Of a stretch of DNA of 64,000 nucleotides, positions 14,001 to 53,233 are shown piece by piece. How positions within the stretch are numbered: position 1 is the stretch's first letter; each line of letters begins with the position of its first letter. A model generated the notes under the pieces. That model ran no database searches. It saw only the letters and a list, made by a program, of their open reading frames with translations, and was not told where the DNA came from. Source of the stretch: a virus. The stretch lies in the IMG/VR virus record IMGVR_UViG_3300045988_133913, positions 2,382-66,381 of that record; one strand, given 5' to 3'. The position numbers and the translations under genes are program-made.

Positions 14001-17000
14001 TAGCAGCCTGCCGAAGAAAGTCCGCGCTGTGCTGGAGCGTATCTGGAACGCGCTGCGCAACGGCATGGCGGCTGTCTCGATGGCGTTGGCGGTTCACCTC
14101 GGCTCAAGTATGGTCGTCAGCCAGCCTGCCGAAGCCGCGAACCTCACTCCGCAGGCAGGCGAGGTGGTTATGAGCAGCGCTGCCAAAGCGTCGCTAGACC
14201 ACATCATCGACACCGCCGACAACGGTGGACGCCCGTTTGTGATTGCCGACAAAAAGGCGGGCAAGCTGTACCTGATGAACGCCGAGGGCAAGGTGGTGGA
14301 CACCACTCCGGCGCTGTTTGGCAAGACGCCTTCCGACGCCGCGAAGACGGCGGGTGCTACGGGTGCGGGCAAATACGACCTGACCTACAACCGCGACACC
14401 CGTCTGCCATCCGGTTACGCGGGCAGCGTGCAGTCGTTCGACACCGGAGCAAATGGCGAGCAGTTTGCCATCCACCGTGTTATTGACGTCAAGGGGCAGA
14501 ACCGTCAGAGCCGACTGGATAGCAAGACCGTCCGCGACAACCGCATCACGCTTGGTTGTATCAACGTTCCGGCGGAGTTCTACGACGCCCACCTAGACAA
14601 CGAGCTAGGCGCGGTGCTGTACGTGTTGCCGGAAACCGCTAACTGGGGTGGCGACCTGTATGGCAAGACCCCCCGTCAGTCTGCACAGCCGACGCCACAG
14701 GCGGTTAAAATCGCAACCGAGGGTACTTCCCTTACCCCAGAGCAGTTACTGGCTGCAACGCGCTCTCAGGCGGATAATCTGATAGCGAACGTACGTGGCA
14801 ACATGGACAACGCCAGCTACCAGCCTGTGCAGGTAACACCCGAACAGTTACAGGCGGCGACGGAAGCCGGGCGGAAGGTAACGACCCAACCTGTGCAGGC
14901 GCAAGCGCCCATCCAGATTGCGGGCGTCCAGCCGTCCACGCAGACCGCCTATATCAGTCCGGTCATGGTAAACGGTGTATCCGCTAACACCCTTGTCGTG
15001 CCGTTCGAGGCGCATACCCCTGCCGAGATGCAAGCAAATGGCGTGTTCGACACACAGCCTGTAGGTAACAAGACCGAGAGTGGGGATAGCCTGTACACCA
15101 TCGCGTCGTGGCTGGCTGCCGCGTTCGCTGCGGGCAAGGTGAATAGCCGTCGCAAGAAGCGTCTGGAGAGCCGCAAGAAAGCCAACGAGGAACGGTTGGC
15201 GCGGATTGAAGCGAAGAACAATCCAGAGCTGAAGTCTGAACCGGAGGACACTTCCGTCGTTCCAGACGAAGCCGAGGTGGAAACCGCCGTCGCCGACAAC
15301 CACGACGTGCAGGCAGCCTTTGCGAAACAAGCCGGTACACACAACCCGCAGACGCCGCTGTCGCAGGCGGTCGCGCAGGCTGTGCGCCAGCAGAACGTGC
15401 TGGAGAATAAAGCCGATTGGATTCATGCATTCGCGATGCGGTATTCCAGCGATGAGGCGCAGTACCAGCAACTGCTCGCCACGATGGGCAATTTCGAGTA
15501 CAACCTCGGTGGTGTGCTGACCGACCGCTCTTACACCCAGAGTGGTGACTTCCGTGACCGCAGGCGCTGGCGCGGCGACCAGACTGATGCAAGCCGTGTG
15601 GGGATGTTGCAGGCGTTCATGCGCTTCGCAGGCGGGGCGACGGTTGCGTTCGATAATCTGTTGCACCGTGTCGGGTCTGCCGCGTTCGGACACGAAGCCG
15701 ACAGCGCCATCGCCAGCAAGATGCTCTCGCAGGTACGCGCCAAGTCGTCCGGGGCGTATGCGCAGCTACACAAGACGCTCATCCACCCACTCGTCATGCA
15801 GACCGCCACGCTTGCCAGCCAGATGCGTCGGGGTCACGGCGAGATTGAAATCGACACCGGCAGAACCGCCACGCTGAACCACATCCTCAACGAAGGCGCG
15901 GAGCAGATGTGGAAAGGTGCAGAGCTGGAAATCGCCAAGATGAAGCTGGACTTGCAGGAGGTGGAAGCGCAAATCCGTTCTACCGCTGCCGGGTCGCAGA
16001 TTCAGCAGACGTGGACGAGCAAGCAGTTGCAACTGCTGAAGGACATCGAAGCCGCCCAGACACTCCTAGACCGCCAGCGCGATATGTACTACGGGCGCGA
16101 GGAGTGGGACGGCACGACTGACCTGCCGGGTGGTTACACCGAGGCGCAGGCTAAGACCGAGCTGCAAGCGCTCAAGGATAAATACGGGGAAGACTTCGCC
16201 AAGATTGAAGCGCACAGCAAGGAGCTGGTGCAGACCATTCAGGGCATCCGCAACTTCGCCGCCGCTGCTGGGGTAGTAACCAACGACCAGCTAGCGATGT
16301 ACAACGAGATGGGCTTCAAGGAGTACGTACCGCTGTATTCGCCGCAGGAAGATGTATCCAAGACTGACGAAAGCATCAGCATCATGCAGACCTCCCGCAT
16401 GGACAGACTGCTGGAAGGTATCCCGCTGGCACAGGCGAAGTCGATGGGGCTGACCCGCGACCTCTCCCGCTTTAAGCGTAAGGGCGCAACCAGCCCGGCG
16501 GAAGACGCTTATACCAACATGAAGGTGTATGCGATGAACACCGCAGGACGTGTGGGGCAGCAGGGCTGGTTGCAGGCGGTGCAGCAGCTCTACGAAGGCA
16601 CAATCGGCAAGCCGTACTCCGTGGCGGGTAACCTCGGCGAAGAAACGCTAAAAGAGCTGAACAGCCAGCCGGAAGGCAAGCTGCCGGGGCTGATTCGTGT
16701 GCGTCCGGGTATGGAGGATTACCTGCCTGCCCACTTGCAGACCGCCATCGCAGCACCGGGTGGACGCATCCGCGCTATCCGCGCCAAGGGCTACAACAGC
16801 GCAGGCGAGCTGGTGGACTACCACTACTACTTCACGGACAAGGCAATCCAGCAAGAGGTTTACTACACCTCGGACACCAGCGAGAGCTTCATGATGCGTA
16901 TCGGGCGCAACGCCGGGACAATTACCCGGTTCGCCGCGCGGATGATGACTACCTTCCGCCCCGTCTGGAACGTGTACAACTGGGTGCGGGACAGCATCGA

Positions 17001-21025: not shown

Positions 21026-21546
21026 ACGAACTCGACTGGATTGCCGAAGGGCGCAAACTCATCGGCGTGGAAGAAAACGCCAACACCTCTAAGGTCGTCG
21101 CCATGTGGCGCGATGGCTTCGAGGCGTCGGGACAAGCCGGGCGGATGAAAGAGTCCGTGTGGAATACTGGCAGCACGCCGTGGTGCGGAGGCTTCGTCGC
21201 CGCCTGCCTCGCCCGTGCAGGTCTGGGCAAGCACGTGCCGAAAGACTTTCCGCTTGCGCGTGCATGGGCTAAGGTAGGCACACCGCTCTCTAAGCCCGCG
21301 TATGGCTGCGTGGTCGTCTTTACACGCGACGGTGGGGGTCACGTTGGCTTTGTCGTCGGTAAGGACACTAAGGGCAACCTGATGGTGCTAGGCGGCAATC
21401 AGGGCAACCACGTCTGCATCAAACCGTTCAGCAAAGCGCGCGTGCTGGCGTATCGCTGGTGCGGGCAGACAGGCGCACCTGCACAGGGTCGGTACGACCT
21501 ACCGCTACTGTCGTCGGATGGCAAGGTGAGTACGAATGAAGCGTAG
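21022..21546 (+). CDS. endolysin, Cys/His (NlpC-P60/CHAP-like) peptidoglycan hydrolase
   Basis: STPWCGGFVAACL with a Cys and GGHVGFVVG with a His are typical of a Cys-His papain-fold cell-wall hydrolase. ATGA overlap with the spanin. No signal or SAR segment. Confidence 0.55.
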   Translation: MNELDWIAEGRKLIGVEENANTSKVVAMWRDGFEASGQAGRMKESVWNTGSTPWCGGFVAACLARAGLGKHVPKDFPLARAWAKVGTPLSKPAYGCVVVFTRDGGGHVGFVVGKDTKGNLMVLGGNQGNHVCIKPFSKARVLAYRWCGQTGAPAQGRYDLPLLSSDGKVSTNEA

Positions 21547-21638
21547 TGCTCAGTTATATAAATAATTTATTGTGCAGCAGGCCATAACCGGCCCTCCGTG
21601 TTCGTAAGTTATTGATTTGTGTAGATGGGTAAAATTCC

Positions 21639-21926
21639 ATGTTTACTAAACTATTGATTTATAAATATACTTTCATCAGGCCGCTGGCGGCCCTACTGCT
21701 AACTGCCTGCACCCGCGTTACCGTCCCGTATCTCGCGCATGAACCGCCTGCTGACCTAACGCAGCCCTGCCCTGCACTGCAACCGCTGGCGGGCATGACG
21801 GGCAAAGACATGACGCTGTGGATAATCACCGCTGCCAACCAGTATCACGACTGTGCTGCCCGCCACGCCGGGCTGGTGCAGGCAACCCGCATCGAGGGGT
21901 CTGTCACGCGGTATGAGTGGCGCTGA
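21639..21926 (+). CDS. o-spanin (Rz1-like outer-membrane lipoprotein)
   Basis: Signal peptide with an LLTAC lipobox, then a short Pro-rich mature peptide with three Cys. It is separated from the i-spanin by the endolysin gene and a low-GC spacer. Confidence 0.5.
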   Translation: MFTKLLIYKYTFIRPLAALLLTACTRVTVPYLAHEPPADLTQPCPALQPLAGMTGKDMTLWIITAANQYHDCAARHAGLVQATRIEGSVTRYEWR

Positions 21927-21949
21927 CCCATTTGTGACCCACAATCAAC

Positions 21950-21984
21950 AAAAAATGAGCCACAAACGAATTTGTGGCTCATTT
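21950..21984. terminator. bidirectional rho-independent terminator between the convergent late (+) and early/middle (-) arms
   Basis: aaaaaat GAGCCACAAA cgaa TTTGTGGCTC attt. This is a 10-bp perfect stem with T/A tracts on both sides. Confidence 0.65.
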
Positions 21985-22001
21985 AGTCTGCACAAGTGCG
22001 A

Positions 22002-22283
22002 TTAGAGGATGGAGACGTTCAGATTTTCTGACGGCTTGAAATGGATATAGGTCTTTGCAGGGATGGTAATCGGCTCACCATTCTGCGGGTTTTTGCCTTT
22101 GCGCTCGGCACGGGTTTTCTTCTGGAATGAACCCACATCGCGGATTTCTACACGCCCGCCTGCACGGAGGGTTTCTACGACGTGCGACCACATGGCGTCC
22201 AGAGCCTTGCGCGCGCTGTCTTGGGTGATGCCTGCGTCTTTAGCGACGGCTGCAATCAGTTTTACTTTGCTAAGATTACTCAT
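22002..22283 (-). CDS. HU/IHF-family histone-like DNA-binding protein
   Basis: A 93-aa protein matching the HU signature (SK..LIAAVA...AGITQDSARKALDAM...RAGGRVEIRDVGSFQKKTRAERKGKNPQNGEPITIPAK). Confidence 0.65.
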   Translation of the reverse strand: MSNLSKVKLIAAVAKDAGITQDSARKALDAMWSHVVETLRAGGRVEIRDVGSFQKKTRAERKGKNPQNGEPITIPAKTYIHFKPSENLNVSIL

Positions 22284-29421: not shown

Positions 29422-29609
29422 GGGTAAGCCTCCTGATGCAAGGATGTGAAAAGAAAAAAGGAAGCGGTTAGCTTCCCCTGTTTTTCGCTTTCCCACCTGA
29501 GAGGTCTACCCCCACGGAGAGTTACTAACCGCTTGGTGGACACCCCCGGCACGCTGACGGCGCAGTGCGAGAGGTAAATAAAGCACTGCCGAGGGCATCC
29601 ACCAAGCGT

Positions 29610-30043: not shown

Positions 30044-30192
30044 TATGCGCTAGTTCCAGCGGGTGCTTTCTTGAGAGTACCTGACATGAGGAAAATCTCC
30101 ACCCGCCGGATGTGTCGTATATTACCGAGAAGCCCTGATGCTGTCAAGCCTTCCTGCCGTTAAACTCGCACGAGATGACGAAACACGCTCGA

Positions 30193-37142: not shown

Positions 37143-37426
37143 TTCTCCATCTCCCGTATAACAGCCGCACTGACAGAAAGCACAAACTGTAATAAAGCAA
37201 CCGCAATCCACACCTCCGGCACAGTCACTATGCCGATAGTGTTTATTAACAATACGCCGATAACCGAAATAACACCGCCAATCATCCGCGTACTTGGATA
37301 CGGTCGCTCCGTAAACACAATCGCCTCCACTTCTTTGTGAAACGTCCAAAGCAAACAGCCTACGGCGGCTACCAGTATCGCCACATCAAACGCTTGCACC
37401 CATAAAATGGTATATGATTCGTTCAT
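37139..37426 (-). CDS. small integral membrane protein
   Basis: 95 aa with three hydrophobic segments. Confidence 0.45.
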   Translation of the reverse strand: MNESYTILWVQAFDVAILVAAVGCLLWTFHKEVEAIVFTERPYPSTRMIGGVISVIGVLLINTIGIVTVPEVWIAVALLQFVLSVSAAVIREMEK

Positions 37427-37542
37427 TTCTGCACCTCCCGTTCTTTTTCTTTTCTACTTGCGGCTACTTCTTTTTGAATCGCCACTACTTCCACTACTGC
37501 ATTCATAAGCGCTGCTACTTTTTGTTTGAAACCTATTTTCAT
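37423..37542 (-). CDS. very small ORF (39 aa)
   Basis: AAGGAG SD then ATG, with an ATGA overlap to the downstream gene. Not in the track because it is under 60 aa. Confidence 0.3.
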   Translation of the reverse strand: MKIGFKQKVAALMNAVVEVVAIQKEVAASRKEKEREVQK

Positions 37543-37563
37543 AATAAGCTCCTTGTTAAAATT

Positions 37564-38211
37564 TCAAGCCATTCTCTGTGCAAAAGCTATTGCAGCTTCC
37601 TTACTAGAAAAGCACAAGCCTCTGCTAAGCCGGTATTTATCGTCATCAATATCTAGCCATTGCGTTTCATAATAACCGTCGTCTGCCGTAATATCAGCGT
37701 AATAATAGCGTTCTCTCATACGGACGCCCGGAAGAAAGTTTACTATACGCATCCAACGGTCAAGCAATACTTTCTCTATACCCTTAGTCCGTATGCTACG
37801 CAATGCTTCTCTGCATTGCTCCTCAATATCATCCGAATATACACCTTTTCGTATCGACTCCCACAAGAATGTGTCTTGATATTGACACAACTCATCTAGC
37901 ACAGCGCTAGGGATTTTGTATCCTTTATTGTGGTGCTTGTATAGGGCGACATAAACACTAGCGAAGTAATTAAAAGTGCCTTTGTTATCACTATCGGTTA
38001 CTAGCTCGATGAGTTTAGCGTAACCCGCAGCGCTTTTTCTTTGCCGCTCTGCCGCTTCTTTTTTAGCCGACGCTAGTTCTTTTTTAAGTGCTGATATTTC
38101 TCTTGTAAGAGTTGCTACTTCTTCTCTAAGACTCTCAATTTCTCTCATAGTCTGTTCGTGTGGGTCAAATGCGCTTCTATAAAGTCTTTCGTCGTCTTCC
38201 CAAGTATTCAT
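37564..38211 (-). CDS. hypothetical protein, family B member 1 (shared C-terminal module), low GC
   Basis: The C-terminal YYYADITADDGYYETQWLDIDDDKYRLSRGLCFSSKEAAIAFAQRMA is conserved in two neighbouring genes. GC is ~40%. Confidence 0.55.
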   Translation of the reverse strand: MNTWEDDERLYRSAFDPHEQTMREIESLREEVATLTREISALKKELASAKKEAAERQRKSAAGYAKLIELVTDSDNKGTFNYFASVYVALYKHHNKGYKIPSAVLDELCQYQDTFLWESIRKGVYSDDIEEQCREALRSIRTKGIEKVLLDRWMRIVNFLPGVRMRERYYYADITADDGYYETQWLDIDDDKYRLSRGLCFSSKEAAIAFAQRMA

Positions 38212-45094: not shown

Positions 45095-45106
45095 GGGGGG
45101 GGGGGG
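45095..45106. repeat. G12 homopolymer (C12 on the coding strand) in the 5' leader of 44859-45077
   Basis: gagtGGGGGGGGGGGGtgcagg is visible directly. Confidence 0.7.
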
Positions 45107-46699: not shown

Positions 46700-46878
46700 G
46701 GCTTACTCCGGTTTGTTGGGTTGCTGTTTGGGCTGTCTCTTGAGCCGCGTGTTGCGCGTCGGATGCCGATTGGTTGAGTGTGGTCGGCGTGTCTGCGGGC
46801 GTGGGTGTGTCGGCTGGTAAAAGGTCGGGATGGGGGTGTGTAACAGCATGGGGTTTCTCCGGTTGTGGGGGGTGTGGG

Positions 46879-47382
46879 TTAGCCTTGCGCGGCAATAGCG
46901 CTGGCTACTTTGGCGGCGTAACGGGCAAGGCTCTCGCCTACCCCGCCGAACATATCGCCGCTGTCCTCGTGCAGTTGACAAACTAGCCTGCGGTTGCTAT
47001 GGCCGGGTCTAGCAAGGCAGTAATTCAGGCAGCGCTGGTAGTATTCCTCGCCTTCAGGAGAGCGCGCGGCTACCATTTCCGCCGCGTGTTGTGCGTCGTA
47101 GTACGCCGCCGCGCGCTCCAGTAATTCCTCAAACAGTATCCGCGCGCGGTTACGCTTGCGTATTGCCCGTTCGTATTCCTTGCGATATTTCGTACGGTCA
47201 AGGAAGGCCACGCCGTAATTGTAGTGGTTTGCAATCTCTCGCAGCAGGTCAGCACGGCGCGCTTCTTGCGGGCGCGCGTCCGTACTCCATTTCCGGTGTA
47301 GTTGGTATGCCTGTTCGGCGTAGGCAAGGGCGTCGGCAAAGGTTGTTTTTATGCCGTAGACGCTAGTGGTGAGGATGTGCAT
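46879..47382 (-). CDS. hypothetical protein
   Basis: Start moved to ATG 47382 with an AGGAG SD 8 nt upstream. Confidence 0.45.
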   Translation of the reverse strand: MHILTTSVYGIKTTFADALAYAEQAYQLHRKWSTDARPQEARRADLLREIANHYNYGVAFLDRTKYRKEYERAIRKRNRARILFEELLERAAAYYDAQHAAEMVAARSPEGEEYYQRCLNYCLARPGHSNRRLVCQLHEDSGDMFGGVGESLARYAAKVASAIAAQG

Positions 47383-47411
47383 TTTTATACTCCTATTTTT
47401 GTATGGGTGGG

Positions 47412-47912
47412 TTATTCCTGTCCGGTTTGGGCAAGGATTTCCTCGCACTTGGCGAGGGCTTGGGCAAACACTTCGCCACGTGTCATGCCCTTCAAAATGG
47501 GGTCATGGGCGGCAGGTGCGTAGGCGTTGAAGGCGACGGCGTCATCGCGCAGGGCGTCGCGCAGGTATTCCACGTCTTCTAGCTGGTCGGTGCGGTAGTC
47601 ATCTTCCAGCAGCCGTATGGCAAGTTCTGGCAAAATCCCTTCCTGTCCATAGTACGGGCTGAAGTACCACTTGCACAGCCCATGCTCGTCGTCTAAGACA
47701 AGCGTGTCGTATCCATTGGTAAGAAAGACGCTCCCGCTTTGTTGATTAAAGTCAATATAGACGCCTACGTCGTCAAACGATTCAGGTAGGGCGTTGCTGA
47801 TGCCCTCCCCCGCGTCTGCGTAAGCGCGTAGCAGATTGGCTGCTAGGTCAAGCTCATATGCGCCGAACCTGTCCAAGGTTGTCATGGGGTATAGGGTGTT
47901 TTGTTTTTTCAT
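47412..47912 (-). CDS. hypothetical acidic protein
   Basis: 166 aa. Confidence 0.45.
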   Translation of the reverse strand: MKKQNTLYPMTTLDRFGAYELDLAANLLRAYADAGEGISNALPESFDDVGVYIDFNQQSGSVFLTNGYDTLVLDDEHGLCKWYFSPYYGQEGILPELAIRLLEDDYRTDQLEDVEYLRDALRDDAVAFNAYAPAAHDPILKGMTRGEVFAQALAKCEEILAQTGQE

Positions 47913-47924
47913 GTTTTATCCTTG

Positions 47925-47965
47925 TGTTGTGGATTAGGGTTGTGGCGGTGCGTAGCACCGCCGGG
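47925..47965 (-). promoter_or_regulatory. conserved upstream element with hairpin, copy 3
   Basis: - strand sense: CCCCCGGCGGTGCtacGCACCGCCACAACCCTAATCCACAACACAAGGA ... ATG. Confidence 0.35.
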
Positions 47966-47987
47966 GGTTTATTGTGTGGGTGGGTTA

Positions 47988-48749
47988 TCATTCATATTCG
48001 AGTATTTCACCAACGTTTTCTTCCAGCCACTCTCTGGCTAATTCAGCCAGTTTTTTGCGGTCGGTTTCTGAATACGGCAGGAGTTTTTCGTCTTTGACAA
48101 TATCTGCGCAGATTTTATTGATGACTTCTTCTTTAACGTCTTTATCCCAGTAAATATAGCAGTCGTCCATGTATTCATCTACATATACTCCCCATTCATC
48201 TACGCCACCAATGGTAATCGTGAACTTACCAGAAATGGGAGAATCATAGAAAATGTTCGTTATATAGGCGCGGTCTATATATTCGTGTGCCTGTTTAGCG
48301 ACGTCATTATAAAAATAAACGTCGATACAATAGCCTTGTGAATAACCGAATGCCCTAAATCCGTCTAACTCGTTTAATGCGTCTGCATTTTCTAACATTT
48401 TGACATAATCTTTCGCTGTTACGTCTGAAAGGTCGGCTAGCATATCTGAAAGCTCATCCCCCGCAACAAAGCCAGCTTCGTAGGGGTCATAACGCATCCA
48501 TTCTTCGGTAAGGGCGCGCGGGTTTTCCTCAAATTCAGCAATCTGTTCGGCGCTGTAATGTTTTTTTGTTTTCGCACCTTCACTAGCGAAAACGATTATA
48601 GCTGATAAGTCGTGCCGGGTATTATAAACCCCTACCATAGGGGTATCGTTCATAAAGTCGTCGAAGTAATCGCTAGCCAAGTTGATGTCATAGCGAAAAC
48701 TATGGCTGAATTCTGCGTCAATAATGGTTTTGAAGGGTAAGTTTTTCAT
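47988..48749 (-). CDS. hypothetical protein encoded in a low-GC island
   Basis: 253 aa. GC is ~42% against ~60% in the flanks. Asp/Glu/Tyr-rich. Confidence 0.5.
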   Translation of the reverse strand: MKNLPFKTIIDAEFSHSFRYDINLASDYFDDFMNDTPMVGVYNTRHDLSAIIVFASEGAKTKKHYSAEQIAEFEENPRALTEEWMRYDPYEAGFVAGDELSDMLADLSDVTAKDYVKMLENADALNELDGFRAFGYSQGYCIDVYFYNDVAKQAHEYIDRAYITNIFYDSPISGKFTITIGGVDEWGVYVDEYMDDCYIYWDKDVKEEVINKICADIVKDEKLLPYSETDRKKLAELAREWLEENVGEILEYE

Positions 48750-48802
48750 GGTTTTTATCCTTGTTTGTGGGTAGCGTGTTAGTCTTGTATCGGTTGCCCG
48801 TG

Positions 48803-49330
48803 CTACGCCATCATGTCGCAGCGGTCGGCAAGTCTGCCGCTTGTGGCGGCATCCACCATCGCGCTCACCGCGTGGCGCACCGCGTAGTCAGCGTCGTCGC
48901 GGATGTCGCAATAGTCGCGGCGACGGTGTGGGTACTTGGCGAGCTTGTCGCGCAAGGCGCACGTCGCGGCAACCGCGCAATCGCGTAGGACGCGGCGCGC
49001 GCCGGGGTAGCTACCGGCACTATACGCGCACGCCAGCGCAAGCGTCTCAAGCGGCAGACGGCACAGCTCCAGCCATGCCGCGTCATAGGCGCGGGTTGCC
49101 AACAAGGAAGCGTCTGGCGCGTCTGCGGCGGTAAGGTCTGCGACGCGCCACAGGTTCGCCTGTGCGTCGAGGTCGTCGGCGAGGTCGCCAATTTCGCTGG
49201 CGAGGTTGTCGGCGACGTCAGCCGCCAGCAGGTTATGCGGGCGCGGCAGACGGTCGAGGTGCGCCGGGTTAAGGCTCTTTTGCAGAGCATCAAGGTCTGC
49301 GATGGTTTTGGGTTGGGTTTGATTGCTCAT
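48803..49330 (-). CDS. hypothetical protein
   Basis: 175 aa, Ala/Asp/Leu-rich. It is the most upstream gene of the compact early cluster. Confidence 0.45.
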   Translation of the reverse strand: MSNQTQPKTIADLDALQKSLNPAHLDRLPRPHNLLAADVADNLASEIGDLADDLDAQANLWRVADLTAADAPDASLLATRAYDAAWLELCRLPLETLALACAYSAGSYPGARRVLRDCAVAATCALRDKLAKYPHRRRDYCDIRDDADYAVRHAVSAMVDAATSGRLADRCDMMA

Positions 49331-49345
49331 TTTTGACTCCTTTTA

Positions 49346-49366
49346 TACTTTTGTTAGGGGTTGATG
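49346..49366 (-). promoter_or_regulatory. conserved upstream element, copy 4
   Basis: - strand sense: CATCAACCCCTAACAAAAGTATAAAAGGAGTCAAAA then ATG. Confidence 0.35.
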
Positions 49367-49372
49367 CGTTTG

Positions 49373-49412
49373 TATCGGATAGCACCCGGAATAGTATGGA
49401 TGCTATCCGATA
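49373..49412. repeat. 12-bp-arm inverted repeat (TATCGGATAGCA / TGCTATCCGATA)
   Basis: A perfect inverted repeat with a 16-nt spacer, just upstream of the copy-4 element. Confidence 0.5.
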
Positions 49413-49471
49413 CAAGCTAGCCGTGGTTTGTGGTTTAGGGTGGCTAGCTTGCATCGCGTTGTGTCGTCTGA

Positions 49472-49506
49472 TACTTATATAAGTACAGGCTGGCGACGTT
49501 GTCGCC
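49472..49506. promoter_or_regulatory. AT palindrome (TACTTATATAAGTA) followed by a GGCGAC-GTT-GTCGCC hairpin with a 3-nt loop
   Basis: Seen directly. Confidence 0.3.
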
Positions 49507-50344
49507 GTTAGTGTTTTATGCGTCGTCTTTGTTGGCGCATTTCAGACATTTACAATGGCTTCCGCAGTCTTTTTCAGCAGTTACATTCACCATTTTCAGT
49601 CTATTCCGCGTGCCGGTACGTTTCGTTTTGTGTCCTTGCCAGCATCCGCGTCATGTAGTGGTTCGCGCGCTATCGTATGCACGCGGCTACATTCTTTACC
49701 GTTTCCCGCTTGCTACTTTGCTAAGGTAGCGCGCTTGTTACGTTTTCCCCTATTGTTAAAGATTGCGCCTTGCACCCGGATGAGGCTAGCGCGAGGTTAA
49801 TTCCTCAATGTATCCGATTTTTCGTGCAGCGGATAGTAGCTGCCGTGCATATTGTTTAGGTGTTAGCACTTGCCTTTGCAAGGTATGGCACGTTGTGTTG
49901 TTGTGCATTGCCTTGCTTGATGCCAGCGGCTCGCCGTAAGGCTCGCTCGCTGTATGGGGCGCATTATAGCGGTTTGTGGGTGGCTTGTCAATAGGCAATC
50001 TTGTTTTTTGTTGATTGCTTATTGCGTGATGATAGGTTGTTGGCAACCATATCAGCATCGCGCCGCCGTCATATTGTTACCGCTATAACGTCGTCCTGTT
50101 TGATTACGGTAATGCCTTTGTCGTGCCAACGTTGAAAACTATTTAGATAACATACAGATATTGGAAAACGTTGAAAGAGTAGAAAAGGATTGGCGACGGA
50201 TTAGCAGCGCAAAATTGTCGGCGAGCGGGAAATTTTTGGCGGATTGTTGTCCTTATATATTGTGCGCAGACGGCACCAACTTTTGCACGCGGTTTTGTTG
50301 TCGCCGTTTTTGTACGCTAACTTTTTCGAGCCGTCGTTGTGTTT

Positions 50345-50359
50345 TTGCTTTTGTTGCCG
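50345..50359. promoter_or_regulatory. second GC hairpin with a GTT loop (TGCCGC-GTT-GCGGCA)
   Basis: Seen directly. Same architecture as 49492-49506. Confidence 0.3.
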
Positions 50360-50369
50360 CGTTGCGGCA

Positions 50370-50560
50370 GTTTGCGACGGATTTTGTCAAGATTAAGATT
50401 TTGAAATGTTAAATGCTGAATTTTGTTAGGTAGTAGGATTCATGCGTAGTTAAGATGGATTTTGAAAAAAAATTGAATTCAATACACAAAATCTTGAATA
50501 TCTTAAATCGGAAAATTAAGGTATTGATTTTGTTCACATTTAATAGCCGAATCTTGAAAA
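50370..50560. repeat. iteron-like array of (G)AT(T/C)TTGAA repeats
   Basis: gattttgt, aagattttgaaatg, gaattttg, ggattttgaaaaaaaa, aatcttgaa, tatcttaaa, tgattttgt and aatcttgaa give about 8 copies in ~190 bp. Confidence 0.45.
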
Positions 50561-50834
50561 GGGGGGTTTTTTGTTGAATCAATATTTTATTTGTTGATTA
50601 TATATAATCCCGAAAAAAACCTGTTTGTTTTGACTATATTAAGATTGGCGATGTTAATTAACATCGGGATTTTGGGGGTTCGGCGAAAGAGAGAGGGGTT
50701 TTGTGATTGTGGGATTATTTGCACGGGCGAAAAATGATGGCGGGGTTTTTGGGATTGCACGGCGCGCAAAAAGATATTACCAAAACATGGACAACTCATT
50801 AAAACCAAAAAGGTCGAAAAAAGGAAAAAAGGGG

Positions 50835-50878
50835 GTATATATATATATATTCAATATATTATTTTTTTTTTTTTTTTT
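50835..50878. repeat. (TA)7 microsatellite followed by a T18 homopolymer (DNA-unwinding-element-like)
   Basis: tatatatatatata ... tttttttttttttttttt is visible directly. Confidence 0.8.
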
Positions 50879-51399
50879 AGCCGATTTTTTCCTCTCCCTC
50901 CTGCTGCTGTTGAATGCCGCCGCCGCCCGCAACCCCCTGTTTTTTCTAGGGTTTTTTATTTCCAGTCAATATAAATCCACATAACATTATTATTGTACAA
51001 TGTTGTAAACATTATTTGTTCAACATTTAAATCTTAACAAAAAAACCATCAACATTTTCAACACGTCTCGAAATTTATTTGCAATCCTCGAAATTCCGCT
51101 TCACGTCTACGCTTCGCGCCCCTCAAAACATTTCTGACGTGTTAATTAACATTTCCCGATTTTTTATTGACAACATTAACCTCAAATTATGTTGGTAACA
51201 TTATTCGTTATTCCAGATAATCCAATAATTCAGCGCCGCAAATGTTATTTTTCGCCGCGCTTTTCCTCGCCATTTCCGCCTGCCGTTTTACGTCATGTTC
51301 AATACTTATTAACACCCTAGTATAATTTAACGCTAATCAATCTTTGCATCTTGATAACCACGCCGCCACCTATCATCCCAAACCGAGATGATAACGTAC

Positions 51400-51540
51400 C
51401 GTGAATTTCGTGGGGCGAGGGCGTCGAAGGGGCGGAGTTGACGGGGGGACCCCGGGACTTGGACACGTGGAGTCGAGGGGGGCTGGGTGAATATATACCC
51501 ACCCCCGCAGACCACCTGCCCCTCCCAGAAATCTAAGGGA
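51400..51540. other. G-run-rich block (potential G-quadruplex/structured region)
   Basis: ggggcgagggcgtcgaaggggcggagttgacggggggaccccgggac...gaggggggctgggtg...cccacccccgc. Includes a CGGGG-GGA-CCCCG 3-nt-loop hairpin. Confidence 0.35.
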
Positions 51541-51771
51541 AACAATAATCATTCCCACCAAGCCGCCAATGCCCCCGGGAAGCCTACGTCCATTACGCTT
51601 CTTGTGGCTTTCTAATATGCTCGGGTGCAGTCTACGTAGCCCATGTCGCCACCAAGCGTCCTGTCCGCTCTCTACAGCCCGGTGCAGCCCACACCCTACC
51701 ACCCACCCCTCCCCCTGCAATCCGCCCAAGAAAAAGCCCCCCATCGCTGGAGGGCTGCCAAAAAATTTTCC

Positions 51772-52245
51772 TCACGAGCCGGGTGCAGTCTCCGCCGCTT
51801 CCTCCCCGGCTTCCTCACCAGCGTTACCCTTACGACCCTTCATCGCCTTCAGGAGGTCAATAGACTTCGCCATCACTCCCACCTGCTGTTCCAACCGTCC
51901 CTGCCCTTCTTTCAGCGCAGCAACGTCTGCAATCAATGCGTCGAGGTCGATGTTCTCTCCATCCACCATAGCTTCCGCGTAGCTGTCAGCGAAAGCCTGT
52001 GCAGTCAGAACCACACCCATCCCCGTGCCGTCAAAGACCACGTAGTGTCCAAGCGGCAACGTCACTTCCTTCCAGTCGTATTTGACAACGACGACAGGAC
52101 CTCCAGCACGCTCGGAACGCTCGCACGTGCCGCCTGCCGCTTCAACATCCGCTGAAAGCTCCGCAAAGTTATCGCCACCAGACTCATCGCCCAGCGCCAC
52201 AAACTTGAAGGCTACAATCGGTTTTTCTTTCTTGTATGCGTACAT
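51772..52245 (-). CDS. hypothetical protein, first gene of the - strand arm
   Basis: ATG 52245 (MYAYKKEK) with a GGAG SD 7 nt upstream, 157 aa. It is isolated from the rest of the arm by the 2.4-kb non-coding region. Confidence 0.45.
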   Translation of the reverse strand: MYAYKKEKPIVAFKFVALGDESGGDNFAELSADVEAAGGTCERSERAGGPVVVVKYDWKEVTLPLGHYVVFDGTGMGVVLTAQAFADSYAEAMVDGENIDLDALIADVAALKEGQGRLEQQVGVMAKSIDLLKAMKGRKGNAGEEAGEEAAETAPGS

Positions 52246-52383
52246 AATACACTCCACTTACGCCCGCCAGCCCGTGCAGCCCCATGCCGCCAGTCGCAAG
52301 CGTAGCGTGTAAGGCATTCTAAGGGTTATACATTTTTACCTCAACCCTTCCATCAGCCCAAACCGTCCTTTACAATCCCCCAC

Positions 52384-52442
52384 GCCAGCCGCAGCCTGCG
52401 ATAGCACAAGCCATTGCGGAACCCCCATACCCTGCGGCTGGC
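52384..52442. repeat. 11-bp-arm inverted repeat (GCCAGCCGCAG / CTGCGGCTGGC)
   Basis: Lies in the divergent region between the - and + arms. Confidence 0.4.
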
Positions 52443-52465
52443 GTCCCCACACTATCTCCGTTACA

Positions 52466-52503
52466 ATCTCCCATAAACCGTTAAGTGTATGGGAGATTTT
52501 TTC
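52466..52503 (+). terminator. terminator-like hairpin plus T6 immediately upstream of the packaging operon
   Basis: ATCTCCCATA / TATGGGAGAT 10-bp stem, 12-nt loop, then TTTTTT. Confidence 0.4.
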
Positions 52504-52504
52504 T

Positions 52505-53233
52505 GTGTCCTCACAAACCACCCCCACCAGTTCGCTAAACCTCAACGAGCAGGCAGCAAGCGCGTTGCGGTCTGCCACCACCCCTGCCTCAACTCCTCCC
52601 GCCGCCAAAACCACCCTCGCACCAGTCGTTCCAGACGACGCCCCGCCTCCGGTGGAGTTCACCCTGTGGGAAGTGCTGGCATCCGACCTCGCTATCGGTA
52701 TGACACCTACCCCCGCCATACTGAAAGCCTACGATATTAGCAAGGAACAACTTGACCTCCTGCAAGCCAACCCCTTCTTCCAGAAGCTGCTGCAAGCCAA
52801 GCAGGACGAAATCGCCGAGAGTTCCCGCAACCCGTCGGAAGCCGCCTTCGTGCAGAAAATGCGCTTTATCGCGGACAAGGCAACCCCCCGCCTGCTCGCG
52901 CGCCTGACCGACAACGAGACGACCAACAAGGACTTCGCCACACTCCTCCAGATGGTTGTGCGGCTTGCCCGGCGTGAACCCCCGCCGCCTCGGGACGACG
53001 CCCCGCTAGCCCCCGCGCTCACAGGCCCTACCGTTACGTTTAACATCGTCGGTGTGCCGGGGTTAGACCATCTGGCGGCAGCTCAGGTAGTGCAGGCCCC
53101 ACCCATCCCGCATACCCCCTCCCCTCCGCTCTCTCACCCGACGTCCACGCCGCCAACCCCCGACACGACCCTGCCCTCACCCGTCGGCCCTGAACCTTCC
53201 GCTGACGACCTGTTGCAGATGGGGGTGCTGTGA
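52505..53233 (+). CDS. small terminase subunit candidate
   Basis: A 242-aa ORF directly upstream of the large terminase, overlapping it by TGATG. GTG start. The call rests on position only. Confidence 0.4.
   Translation: MSSQTTPTSSLNLNEQAASALRSATTPASTPPAAKTTLAPVVPDDAPPPVEFTLWEVLASDLAIGMTPTPAILKAYDISKEQLDLLQANPFFQKLLQAKQDEIAESSRNPSEAAFVQKMRFIADKATPRLLARLTDNETTNKDFATLLQMVVRLARREPPPPRDDAPLAPALTGPTVTFNIVGVPGLDHLAAAQVVQAPPIPHTPSPPLSHPTSTPPTPDTTLPSPVGPEPSADDLLQMGVL

What the first reader, a model, noticed from the sequence alone, without database searches (positions are those of the whole stretch)
49331..51771. 2.4-kb non-coding region with iterons, (TA)7T18 unwinding element, GTT-loop GC hairpins, long inverted repeats and a G-rich block
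This is by far the largest gene-free stretch. It contains a 12-bp-arm perfect inverted repeat (49373-49412) and an AT palindrome plus GGCGAC-GTT-GTCGCC hairpin (49472-49506). A second TGCCGC-GTT-GCGGCA hairpin lies at 50345-50359. About 8 copies of (G)AT(T/C)TTGAA fall within 190 bp (50370-50560). A (TA)7 plus T18 tract (50835-50878) and a G-run block with a CGGGG-GGA-CCCCG hairpin (51400-51540) complete the set. Iterons plus an AT-rich DUE is the classic layout of a replication origin. Small GC hairpins with 3-nt loops are the promoter form used by N4-type virion RNAPs. G-rich blocks near genome ends can be packaging or terminal-repeat boundaries. The region may combine ori, early promoters and the physical genome terminus.
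Basis: partly seen in the sequence, partly recalled or inferred. Interest (0 to 1): 0.65.

Follow-up and report, generated by a model that had tools for sequence, protein, structure and literature searches.

The report
Phage control region with folded leader RNA
This 2.4-kb gene-free stretch is the conserved control region of an uncultured, human-associated phage: it holds a textbook host-type early promoter, a ~630-base folded leader RNA, a terminator and an extremely AT-rich core that may be the replication origin. It shows no N4-style hairpin promoters and no demonstrable genome end.

Summary
The stretch 49331-51771 is real, non-coding and conserved in more than 40 metagenomic contigs of a ~66-kb phage with no cultured close relative. 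Most listed features exist, with corrections: one hairpin is 10 nt off, the run is T17, and only 4 exact 'iterons' are present.

Supported by tests:
- A perfect sigma-70 consensus promoter lies on the - strand (49991-49963). Its hexamers are invariant in 21 sequences while the spacer varies.
- It feeds a ~630-nt untranslated leader. The leader's hairpins carry 44 compensatory base-pair changes and an invariant 21-nt loop, and it matches no Rfam family.
- An invariant intrinsic terminator (51756-51735) ends the small leftward gene.
- The (TA)7/T17 core is the least stable duplex of the window and a sharp GC-skew flip. It is flanked by invariant palindromes and by AACATT repeats enriched in four sequence sets (three lineages).

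Not supported:
- N4-type hairpin promoters. The three hairpins are not conserved and no virion RNA polymerase was detected.
- A fixed genome end. Contig ends scatter, at least 20 contigs read through, one assembly closes into a circle and one is a dimer.

The origin idea remains plausible (about 35%) but unproven.

The parts
49328..49956 (-). About 630-nt untranslated, highly structured leader RNA of the leftward early operon. It runs from the predicted transcription start to the ATG at 49330. Shine-Dalgarno GGAG lies at 49337-49340.
   Evidence: RNAalifold on 15 sequences: 100 pairs, 44 with compensatory changes, covariation term -14.1. Pair counts: 97% paired against 27-40% when partners are slid; 0/500 shuffles reach the observed value. 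MFE -198 kcal/mol, z = -5.6. No Rfam match.
49963..49991 (-). Early promoter P1: TTGACA (49991-49986), 17-nt spacer, TATAAT (49968-49963). A 12/12 match to the sigma-70 consensus.
   Evidence: Hexamers are invariant in 21 sequences (CATAAT in L011) with at least 9 different spacers. It is the only 12/12 match found for the - strand gene cluster.
49607..49650 (-). Hairpin whose stem covaries (AUGCUGG/CCGGCA, AUCGGUG/CACCGA, AGCGAGG/CCUCGC). Its 21-nt loop GGACACAAAACGAAACGUACC (49635-49615) is invariant.
   Evidence: Helix 12: 5 pairs with changes on both sides. The loop is identical in 15 sequences from two clades.
49753..49762 (-). boxA-like UCUUUAACAA in the leader, followed by a covarying hairpin (49700-49742).
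   Evidence: Exact in window and L023; GGTCTTTAACAA in L011; diverged (TCTATAACAA) in others. The 13-mer match is not significant window-wide. This is a lead only.
49370..49455 (-). Two adjacent long hairpins just upstream of the ribosome-binding site.
   Evidence: Helices 18-19 and 19-21. Arms change in a compensatory way between lineages.
49492..49506 (.). GGCGAC-GTT-GTCGCC hairpin, lying inside the leader.
   Evidence: Present. The loop becomes 7-8 nt in L005 and L023, and the hairpin is absent from the L011 clade.
49920..49953 (-). Optional 34-nt hairpin at the 5' end of the leader (presence/absence polymorphism).
   Evidence: Deleted in the 99.3%-identical L042 and absent in many relatives.
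50198..50292 (.). 95-nt block, nearly identical in the first three relatives compared. Function unknown.
   Evidence: alignment. It is less uniform in the 15-sequence set.
50355..50369 (.).
   Evidence: Found only in the window/L041/L042 lineage.
50380..50674 (+).
   Evidence: GATTTTG 5 against 0.5 expected; ATYTTGAA 4 exact. Only 2 of 5 GATTTTG copies are conserved in L005/L006. GATTTTTG-type copies also lie left of the T-run in L011.
50596..50609 (.). Perfect 14-bp palindrome GATTATATATAATC inside an invariant 21-nt block.
   Evidence: Invariant block 50592-50612 in 15 distinct sequences.
50650..50665 (.). Perfect 16-bp palindrome GATGTTAATTAACATC (left copy of TGTTAATTAACA).
   Evidence: Both copies are present in every locus that covers them; invariant block.
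50816..50893 (.). AT core: purine tract GAAAAAAGGAAAAAAGGGGG, (TA)7 at 50836-50849, TTCAATATATTA, T17 at 50862-50878, then a partly complementary TTTTTTCCT.
   Evidence: TRF. Least stable 50-bp duplex of the window. GC skew flips from +0.4 to -0.4 here. A T16-27 run plus TA repeat is kept in the L011 clade without alignable flanks. Repeat lengths differ between 99%-identical genomes.
50891..50939 (+). C-run block mirroring the G-run/T-run block on the left (50561-50835).
   Evidence: Largely conserved.
50983..51202 (+). Array of 8 same-strand AACATT copies, plus 3 AATGTT copies elsewhere in the core.
   Evidence: Window 11 against 1.9 expected; L005 10 against 1.8; L011 (AACRTT) 7 against 1.5; all 0/1000 shuffles. 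L010 5 against 1.2, 4/1000. L011 carries an inverted 19-nt pair of this motif flanking its T18.
51011..51040 (-). Candidate leftward promoter TTGTTA-18-AATAAT.
   Evidence: 9/12 match in window and L006. It lies inside a 35-nt block invariant in 15 sequences. Function is inferred.
51140..51174 (+). Right copy of palindrome TGTTAATTAACA (51140-51151) followed by TTGACA (51167-51172). Invariant 35-nt block.
51192..51221 (+). Candidate rightward promoter TTGGTA (TTGGCA in relatives)-18-GATAAT.
   Evidence: Function is inferred.
51410..51516 (+). G-run block, invariant TGGACACGTGGAGTC (51460-51474), and a hairpin GGGGGGCTGGGTG/ACCCACCCCC with an ATATATA-containing loop (51477-51506).
   Evidence: dG -23.7, z -4.3. 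Most conserved part of the right half, 0.98 identity. The layout G-runs, ATATATA, C-runs recurs in L010, L011 and L015. The CGGGG-GGA-CCCCG hairpin (51442-51454) is not conserved.
51497..51734 (+). C-rich repeat modules bounded by CCGCAGACC / GGTGCAG(T/C)C motifs. Copy number varies between strains.
   Evidence: Relatives carry an extra ~98-nt module or lack one. GKTGCAGYC at 51624, 51681 and 51782. At least 6 GTGCAGAC copies in L010. Least conserved part of the gap.
51735..51756 (-). Intrinsic terminator of the leftward gene 51772-52245.
   Evidence: 9-bp stem plus T-run. 40-nt invariant block. An equivalent terminator follows the homologous gene in L011.

Best explanation
The stretch is the phage's main intergenic control region. 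It sits where the leftward early/replication gene arm and the rightward packaging/structural arm diverge.

**Shown or strongly supported**
1. Host RNA polymerase starts at a consensus sigma-70 promoter (49991-49963, - strand).
2. It transcribes a ~630-nt untranslated leader that folds into a chain of about a dozen hairpins before the first early gene. One hairpin presents an invariant 21-nt loop, presumably a recognition site for a protein or another RNA.
3. At the right edge, an intrinsic terminator ends the lone leftward gene 51772-52245.
4. The middle 1.4 kb is an AT-rich block under strong purifying selection. It holds invariant palindromes (GATTATATATAATC; TGTTAATTAACA twice, 488 bp apart on either side of the core), AACATT repeats, promoter-like blocks, and a (TA)n/T16-27 core that is the easiest place in the genome to melt.

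**Inferred**
- The palindromes and AACATT sites bind a sequence-specific protein that controls outward transcription. The candidate promoters are 51040-51011 leftward, and 51167-51221 rightward.
- The same protein-bound, easily melted core is the most likely site of replication initiation (about 35%).
- The leader most likely protects the long untranslated, C/A-rich transcript and the 27-kb operon from premature termination, or sets mRNA processing and translation of the first gene.

It is not an N4-type hairpin-promoter region, and it shows no sign of a fixed genome end.
For: **Promoter**
- 12/12 consensus match.
- Hexamers invariant in 21 sequences with at least 9 different spacers, including a clade with only 79% TerL identity.

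**Leader**
- 7-sequence set: 40 of 120 pairs compensatory.
- 15-sequence set: 44 of 100 pairs compensatory, 97% of cells paired against 27-40% in slid controls.
- Folding z-score -5.6.
- No conserved ORF.

**Terminator:**

**Core**
- Least stable duplex of the window.
- GC-skew flip at 50800-50900.
- Invariant blocks listed.
- Both palindrome copies present in all loci that cover them.
- AACATT enrichment in four sequence sets, three lineages.

**Architecture**
- The same layout is kept, without alignable sequence, in the L011 clade, and on the right half in L010, L014 and L015.
- Sense strands of flanking genes are C- and A-rich, and the two halves of the gap continue that skew outward from the core.
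Against: - No transcript ends are mapped, so every promoter except P1 is a weak consensus match (9-10 of 12).
- Strand assignment of the hairpins is not decisive. The + strand alignment folds about as well (-125 against -123 kcal/mol), although its covariation term is weaker (-5.9 against -9.9).
- One natural variant (contig 3300007091_000006) lacks P1 and the leader core, so they are not indispensable, or another promoter substitutes.
- No DNA-binding protein for the palindromes was identified. The flanking proteins have no family hits.
- For the origin component: there are no long regularly spaced iterons, no initiator gene was recognised, and the skew polarity is opposite to the bacterial origin rule.
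Confidence: 0.55

Rival explanations
1. The main function is a replication origin. Short repeats bind an initiator, perhaps the 1016-aa primase-helicase. The (TA)7/T17 tract is the unwinding element. Flanking transcription activates it.
For: - Least stable duplex of the window.
- The core is conserved across clades.
- AACATT and GATTTTG motifs lie on opposite sides of the core in two clades.
- L011 has an inverted 19-nt pair flanking its T18.
- The gene arms diverge here and converge near 21.5-22.3 kb, so they are co-oriented with forks leaving this point.
- The phage encodes its own primase-helicase, helicase and DNA polymerase.
Against: - The motifs are 6-7 bp and irregularly spaced (14-76 bp). 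Several copies are not conserved.
- No initiator gene was identified.
- The GC skew flips + to -, the opposite of the bacterial origin pattern, and the window-wide cumulative skew has several extrema.
- All the sequence features are equally expected of a promoter/operator hub.
Confidence: 0.35
2. The small GC hairpins with 3-nt loops are N4-type early promoters, read on extruded single-stranded DNA by a virion-packaged RNA polymerase (the 3564-aa protein).
For: - Three such hairpins against 0.28 expected locally.
- The genome layout resembles N4: convergent arms and a ~3500-aa virion-size protein.
Against: - The hairpins are not conserved.
- They share no conserved flanking sequence. N4 promoters have conserved bases at -11, -10, -8 and +1 (PMC4496689).
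- For leftward early transcription, the template-strand loop is GTT, with a central pyrimidine.
- The giant ORF shows no vRNAP similarity in PHROGs, Pfam or PDB sequences.
- A conserved consensus sigma-70 promoter serves the early operon.
Confidence: 0.03
3. The gap contains the physical genome ends (terminal repeat boundary or cos site), or the pac site where packaging starts. The G-run/ATATATA/C-run element and the GTGCAG modules upstream of the small-terminase-like gene would be terminase recognition sites.
For: - The gap lies 0.7 kb upstream of the terS-like/TerL genes.
- The repeat modules have one orientation and extend to the terS-like gene start in L010.
- Many contig ends fall in the gap, 6-7 of them at the T-run.
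- The element 51460-51516 is nearly invariant.
Against: - Contig ends are at more than 15 different positions. Those at the T-run come from both sides with ragged T counts, as expected of homopolymer failure.
- No contig ends at the ATATATA element.
- At least 20 contigs cross the whole gap.
- One contig circularises with only a 55-nt overlap, one is a 132-kb dimer, and the identical sequence occurs in another permutation.
- The nearest cultured TerL relatives (30-33% identity) include Mx8, which from memory is a headful packager. That would mean no fixed ends.
Confidence: 0.15
4. The covarying inverted repeats of the left third act as DNA (operators for dimeric proteins, or cruciforms) or as a + strand RNA, not as a - strand leader RNA.
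For: - The + strand alignment folds equally well.
- Some wobble positions favour the + strand (GGCGAC/GTCGTC in L005, L023 and L037).
- GATACTTATATAAGTATC is a loop-less perfect palindrome in L035 and L037.
Against: - The promoter points leftward into these repeats.
- The covariation term is stronger on the - strand (-9.9 against -5.9).
- Helix 15/18 needs G-U pairs that become A-C mismatches on the + strand.
- There are a dozen hairpins with different sequences, which is hard to reconcile with operators for one protein.
Confidence: 0.12

Closest known systems
Coliphage T7 early region (host promoters A1-A3, long leader with RNase III hairpins before gene 0.3). From my own knowledge.
   Same: A strong host-type promoter sits several hundred nt upstream of the first early gene. 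The leader is untranslated and contains long hairpins. The region lies in the non-coding zone between the end of the late genes and the start of the early genes.
   Different: Only one consensus promoter is seen here. The leader is much more structured (about 12 helices) and has an invariant 21-nt loop. No phage RNA polymerase gene was found, and no terminal repeat is shown.
Lambda nut sites / E. coli rrn boxA antitermination leaders. From my own knowledge.
   Same: A boxA-like UCUUUAACAA (rrn boxA is UGCUCUUUAACAA) lies in the early leader and is followed by a covarying hairpin. It heads a very long single-strand operon.
   Different: The match is exact in only some lineages and is not significant on its own. 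No N-like protein was identified and there is no second copy elsewhere in the window.
Iteron plus AT-rich-DUE origins (lambda ori, P4 ori/crr, iteron plasmids). From my own knowledge.
   Same: Short repeats lie next to the most easily melted DNA. The phage encodes its own primase-helicase, as P4 does.
   Different: The repeats are 6-7 bp, irregularly spaced and partly unconserved, instead of 17-22-bp phased iterons. No initiator gene is adjacent.
N4 virion-RNA-polymerase hairpin promoters (PMC4496689).
   Same: GC-rich 5-6-bp stems with 3-nt loops are present. The genome layout is N4-like and there is a ~3500-aa ORF.
   Different: The hairpins are not conserved, conserved promoter bases are missing, and no vRNAP similarity was found.
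Large structured non-coding RNAs found in phages (GOLLD, ROOL; Rfam families). From my own knowledge.
   Same: Size around 600 nt, many covarying helices, phage-encoded, function not obvious.
   Different: No Rfam match. It is positioned as a 5' leader of an operon rather than a free-standing gene. Long-range helices are weakly supported.
Simple-repeat tracts in promoter regions of mucosal bacteria, for example (TA)n between the hifA/hifB promoters of Haemophilus influenzae. From my own knowledge.
   Same: (TA)n and poly-T tracts lie in a divergent control region. Their lengths differ between otherwise 99%-identical genomes.
   Different: No promoter hexamers flank the tracts at the right spacing, and no evidence links tract length to expression.

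Membership tests
Sigma-70 (housekeeping) promoter | -35 TTGACA and -10 TATAAT hexamers separated by 16-18 bp | tested here: met
   12/12 match with a 17-bp spacer at 49991-49963 on the - strand.
Sigma-70 (housekeeping) promoter | Hexamers conserved while the spacer sequence drifts | tested here: met
   21 sequences, at least 9 spacer variants, hexamers invariant apart from CATAAT in L011.
Sigma-70 (housekeeping) promoter | Mapped transcription start | not testable with these tools
   No RNA data are available.
Structured cis-regulatory / non-coding RNA | Base pairs maintained by compensatory substitutions | tested here: met
   44 of 100 pairs against 5-10 in slid controls; 0/500 shuffles reach the observed value.
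Structured cis-regulatory / non-coding RNA | Membership of a described RNA family | tested here: not met
   No Rfam 15 match at the gathering threshold; only chance-level hits at E up to 5.
Structured cis-regulatory / non-coding RNA | Transcribed strand identified | tested here: inconclusive
   Promoter direction and covariation term favour the - strand. Total alignment energies are similar on both strands.
Intrinsic (Rho-independent) terminator | GC-rich stem-loop followed by a U-run directly after a gene's stop codon | tested here: met
   51756-51735 on the - strand: 9-bp stem, TTTTTCTT tail, 16 nt after the stop. Invariant, and mirrored in L011.
N4-type virion-RNAP hairpin promoter | Hairpin with a 5-7-bp stem and 3-nt loop carrying conserved bases (-11 purine, -10G, -8G, +1C), shared by all promoters (PMC4496689) | tested here: not met
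   The three hairpins share no such bases. For leftward transcription the template loop is GTT.
N4-type virion-RNAP hairpin promoter | Conservation of the hairpins in related phages | tested here: not met
N4-type virion-RNAP hairpin promoter | Presence of a virion RNA polymerase gene | tested here: not met
   The 3564-aa ORF has no vRNAP hit in PHROGs, Pfam or PDB sequences. A fold-level test was not done.
Iteron-type replication origin | Three or more direct repeats of about 17-22 bp with helical phasing | tested here: not met
   Only 6-8-bp motifs with irregular spacing.
Iteron-type replication origin | Adjacent AT-rich DNA-unwinding element | tested here: met
   43 nt of pure A/T. Least stable 50-bp duplex of the window.
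Iteron-type replication origin | Origin activity or initiator binding | not testable with these tools
   Needs experiments or marker-frequency data.
Physical genome terminus / direct terminal repeat | Independent contigs end at the same base, or carry a long terminal duplication | tested here: not met
   Ends scatter over more than 15 positions. The only terminal duplication found is a 55-nt assembler overlap.
Physical genome terminus / direct terminal repeat | Read-start pile-up or two-fold coverage step | not testable with these tools
   No read data are available.
nut / boxA antitermination site | boxA consensus followed by a stem-loop in an early leader | tested here: inconclusive
   10-nt exact core in some lineages, diverged in others. 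A covarying hairpin lies 20 nt downstream. The match is not significant alone.

The most novel reading that the evidence does not exclude
The ~630-nt leader is a new class of large structured phage RNA with a function of its own, rather than a passive untranslated region. Possible roles are rendering host RNA polymerase termination-resistant or capturing a host factor. Its invariant 21-nt loop (GGACACAAAACGAAACGUACC) on a freely covarying stem would be the recognition element.
Probability: 0.3. Interest if true: 0.7.

Novelty: new variant of a known kind. Interest (0 to 1): 0.5.

Why it matters
The phage family is abundant in human-associated metagenomes and has no cultured member. Dozens of 63-69-kb contigs carry it, from HMP samples and from records labelled ZHAN15, VALL22 and SUKU23. 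This region is its only obvious control centre.

The work gives concrete, testable handles:
- a consensus promoter;
- a large covariation-supported RNA with an invariant loop and no Rfam family;
- two kinds of invariant palindromes that should identify the regulator or initiator;
- a hypermutable (TA)n/poly-T core.

It also shows why assemblies of this phage break here. The cause is a homopolymer, hairpins and repeat modules, and these breaks should not be mistaken for genome ends.

Tried and rejected
- **Similarity to cultured phages.** Nucleotide searches found nothing. The nearest portal and TerL relatives are 23-33% identical and not syntenic.
- **tRNA and Rfam searches.** Nothing found.
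- **Hidden genes in the gap.** Rejected. The 123-aa and 93-aa ORFs are artefacts of G-rich and poly-T sequence.
- **Host clues.** No Neisseria/Pasteurellaceae uptake sequences. No match in GTDB genomes to TerL or the leader core.
- **Second copy of the leader elsewhere in the window** (a nutL/nutR-like pair). None found.
- **boxA significance.** Not significant on its own.
- **Terminators within the 27-kb operon** as support for antitermination. Not enriched.
- **Function of flanking proteins.** No family hits. The homology search for the 157-aa protein returned only unnamed close relatives, so no structure prediction was run.
- **Cumulative GC skew as an origin locator.** Several extrema, so uninformative at window scale.
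- **Greedy ORF tiling** to test 'largest gene-free stretch'. Uninformative, because spurious ORFs fill the gap.
- **T-run as a + strand terminator.** Convincing in L011 (10-bp stem plus U18) but weak in the window, where the stem is A/U only. Left open.

Full report
**Context**

The window is a phage genome.
- + strand packaging and structural genes run from about 52.5 kb, round the window ends, to 21.5 kb.
- - strand early and replication genes run from 49.3 kb down to 22.3 kb. They include a primase-helicase, a helicase, a DNA polymerase and a RusA-like resolvase.
- The phage has no nucleotide match among 50,697 cultured-phage records. Its portal and TerL are 23-33% identical to the nearest cultured phages, which are not syntenic.
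- It is common in metagenomes. IMG/VR, JGI, ENA and Logan hold dozens of 63-69-kb contigs of close relatives, including HMP samples and records labelled ZHAN15, VALL22 and SUKU23.
- A stretch of 10.5 kb of the window is 100% identical to ENA contig ERZ27262842 k119_86306 (66,444 nt). That contig is broken at a different place from the window's source.

**Check of the observation**

The gap 49331-51771 is real.
- Its left edge is the ATG of gene 48803-49330.
- Its right edge is the stop of a genuine - strand gene, 51772-52245. Substitutions there concentrate at third codon positions, and the protein is 35% identical to its L011 homologue.

The listed elements are present with these corrections:
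- The first inverted repeat has 15-bp perfect arms.
- The second GTT hairpin is at 50355-50369.
- The homopolymer is T17.
- ATYTTGAA has four exact copies.

Evidence that the gap is non-coding:
- Between two clades no ORF is conserved, and the one similar segment matches in all frames.
- Indels are not multiples of three.
- Gene callers leave 2.4-2.6 kb empty on 20 contigs, apart from spurious 87-93-aa ORFs on two loci.

Composition:
- All five lowest-GC 100-nt windows of the 64 kb lie in the gap.
- The least stable 50-bp duplex is at 50836-50885, -48.5 kcal/mol against a mean of -74.3 (sd 5.4).

**Left third: promoter and leader**

The - strand carries TTGACA-17-TATAAT at 49991-49963, a 12/12 consensus match.
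- In 21 sequences, including a clade whose TerL is only 79% identical, the hexamers are invariant (CATAAT once).
- The 17-nt spacer takes at least nine different forms.

From the predicted start (~49956) to the ATG at 49330 there are about 630 nt without a conserved ORF. Evidence that this leader is structured:
- It folds far better than shuffled sequence (z = -5.6).
- With 7 sequences, RNAalifold predicted 120 pairs, 40 of them with compensatory changes.
- With 15 sequences, it predicted 100 pairs, 44 compensatory, with a covariation term of -14.1.
- Counting pairs gives 97% standard pairs against 27-40% when partners are slid by 1-3 columns. There are 44 covarying pairs against 5-10 in those controls, and 0 of 500 column shuffles reach the observed values.
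- The hairpin at 49607-49650 is the most telling. Its stem has three different complementary versions, while its 21-nt loop GGACACAAAACGAAACGUACC is identical in all 15 sequences.
- No Rfam family matches.

Caveats on the leader:
- The strand is assigned from the promoter direction and the stronger covariation term (-9.9 against -5.9). The total alignment energies are similar on both strands.
- A boxA-like UCUUUAACAA (49762-49753) followed by a covarying hairpin suggests a nut/rrn-like antitermination site. The match is not significant alone and has drifted in several lineages. I treat it as a lead.
- One contig (3300007091_000006) lacks 49457-50020, that is P1 and the leader core. So another promoter must be able to serve the early genes.

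**Right edge**

- A 9-bp GC-rich stem with a T-run at 51756-51735 (- strand) follows the stop of gene 51772-52245 by 16 nt. It lies in a 40-nt block invariant in 15 distinct sequences and has a counterpart in L011.
- To its left lie C-rich modules bounded by CCGCAGACC and GGTGCAG(T/C)C motifs. Their number differs between strains: there is an extra ~98-nt unit in most relatives and a missing one in L005. This is the least conserved part of the gap.
- Just upstream is the best conserved part of the right half. It comprises TGGACACGTGGAGTC and a hairpin GGGGGGCTGGGTG/ACCCACCCCC around ATATATA (dG -23.7, z -4.3).
- The layout G-runs, ATATATA, C-runs, then repeat modules, terminator, small - strand gene, and terS-like gene recurs in L010, L011 and L015. 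L014 keeps the AT-rich and G-run parts.

**Centre**

- The core is GAAAAAAGGAAAAAAGGGGG-(TA)7-TTCAATATATTA-T17. It is conserved in every close relative.
- The L011 clade keeps it as T18-(TA)4-5 with unalignable flanks.
- Tract lengths vary: T16 to at least T27, and (TA)5-7. They differ even between genomes 99.3% identical.
- GC skew is +0.2 to +0.43 to the left of the core and -0.19 to -0.39 to the right. The flip occurs within 50800-50900.

Around the core, 15 distinct sequences share invariant blocks:
- the 14-bp palindrome GATTATATATAATC (50596-50609);
- the palindrome TGTTAATTAACA, twice (50652 and 51140), on either side of the core and present in all loci that cover them;
- a 35-nt block that coincides with a - strand promoter-like TTGTTA-18-AATAAT (51040-51011);
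- a 35-nt block ending in TTGACA (51167-51172).
- A further conserved + strand candidate, TTGGTA/TTGGCA-18-GATAAT, lies at 51192-51221.

Repeats:
- The statistically enriched repeat is AACATT/AATGTT. Counts are window 11 against 1.9 expected, L005 10 against 1.8, L011 (AACRTT) 7 against 1.5 (all 0/1000 shuffles), and L010 5 against 1.2 (4/1000).
- There are eight same-strand copies to the right of the core.
- In L011 a 19-nt inverted pair of the motif brackets the T18.

**Genome ends**

- Contig ends inside the gap map to about 49680, 49790, 49934, 50013, 50225, 50280, 50565, 50615, 50850-50878 (five or six contigs), 50905, 50941, 51498, 51588, 51702 and 51720.
- Those at the T-run arrive from both sides and carry ragged T counts (17, 19, 20, 24, at least 27). 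This is what a hypervariable homopolymer does to assemblers.
- One break is at the apex of a long hairpin. Others are in the repeat modules.
- At least 20 contigs cross the whole gap.
- Contig 177994 repeats its first 36 nt 55 nt from its end. This is a k-mer overlap, giving a 66,663-bp circle.
- One scaffold of 132,087 nt carries the region twice.
- So assemblies behave as circles, and there is no positional signal of a fixed end. Without reads this cannot be excluded. TerL's nearest cultured relatives are too distant to decide.

**N4 hypothesis**

- N4 early promoters are hairpins with a 3-nt loop and bases conserved among promoters (-11 purine, -10G, -8G, +1C) (PMC4496689).
- Here three GC-rich 3-nt-loop hairpins occur against 0.28 expected, but none passes the conservation test.
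- They share no such bases.
- The 3564-aa ORF has no detectable virion RNA polymerase similarity.
- The early operon has a conserved host-type promoter.

**Synthesis**

The region is best read as the phage's central control region.
- Shown: non-coding status; conserved architecture over at least four lineages; the consensus early promoter; the covariation-supported leader; the terminator; and invariant palindromes and blocks around a uniquely meltable, hypermutable AT core that is also the pivot of compositional skew and of gene orientation.
- Inferred: the palindromes and AACATT sites bind a regulator or initiator; further promoters fire outward from the right AT-rich arm; the core doubles as the replication origin (about 35%); and the leader confers antitermination or processing control.
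- The right-hand G-run/ATATATA/C-run element and the GTGCAG modules are conserved and unexplained. Packaging recognition is one candidate (about 15%).

Noticed in passing
window 52258-53233: The real gene upstream of TerL is the + strand 242-aa ORF 52505-53233, a small-terminase-position gene conserved in L010, L011, L014 and L015. The - strand ORFs 52336-52719 and 52729-53046 are spurious. TerL starts at ATG 53233. A strong hairpin plus T-run (52466-52502, dG -16, z -3.95) sits immediately before the gene's GTG start, and L011 has an analogous hairpin plus T7. This suggests terminator/antiterminator control of the late operon.
   Followed up: partly
window 8068-18762: The giant 3564-aa ORF occupies the position of the N4 virion RNA polymerase but shows no detectable similarity to it. 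It has only a weak YkuD-like stretch (residues 2057-2169) and an unknown PHROG.
   Followed up: partly
window 45095-45106: A G12 homopolymer lies in the short spacer between the RusA-like gene and the next - strand gene. It is the only other long homopolymer in the window, and the adjacent segment is an indel hotspot in relatives.
   Followed up: no
window 46872-49327; L005, L020, L024, L046-L064: The first early genes next to the gap are mosaic. Different lineages carry unrelated first genes (175, 168, 158, 142, 130 or 94 aa) behind the same promoter and leader.
   Followed up: partly
L006 + L024 (contig IMGVR_UViG_3300007091_000006): This natural variant lacks window 49457-50020, that is promoter P1 and the conserved leader core. 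The junction is at a TTGC(A/G)T microhomology. Its last hairpin has an ~85-nt insert, and the contig breaks at that hairpin's apex.
   Followed up: partly
L047/L053 (ENA ERZ28637325 scaffold_49, 132,087 nt); P0009, P0027: Several assemblies of about twice the genome length (126-132 kb) carry the region twice. They are dimer or concatemer-like scaffolds.
   Followed up: no
L053, L054, L055 locus ends (first early gene): Three long contigs from different samples all break at a short direct repeat (CAATACTGGCGGATTTGTC duplicated) inside the first early gene. This is another recurrent assembly break outside the gap.
   Followed up: no
window 21546-22280: This is the convergence point of the two gene arms. 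It contains A/T-only runs (21554-21571, 21657-21669) and one of the least stable duplex windows (21629). It is probably a bidirectional terminator zone, and the replication terminus if the origin is in the gap.
   Followed up: no
window 37240-37251 and 37349-37564: A near-copy (TGTTTATTAACA, one mismatch) of the gap palindrome lies next to the second lowest-GC region of the window (GC 0.40-0.43). It may be a secondary control region.
   Followed up: no
L015 1-90: A more distant relative (TerL 74%) starts its contig with 3.5 tandem copies of a 22-23-nt unit (TGTACAGGCGTAAGCTGATTGGG), where the window has AACATT repeats. True iteron-like repeats therefore exist in that lineage.
   Followed up: no
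window 30119-30147 and 29457-29479: A second good - strand promoter match (TTGACA-17-TAATAT, 10/12) and a strong - strand terminator lie inside the replication gene cluster. This hints at a separate middle transcription unit.
   Followed up: no
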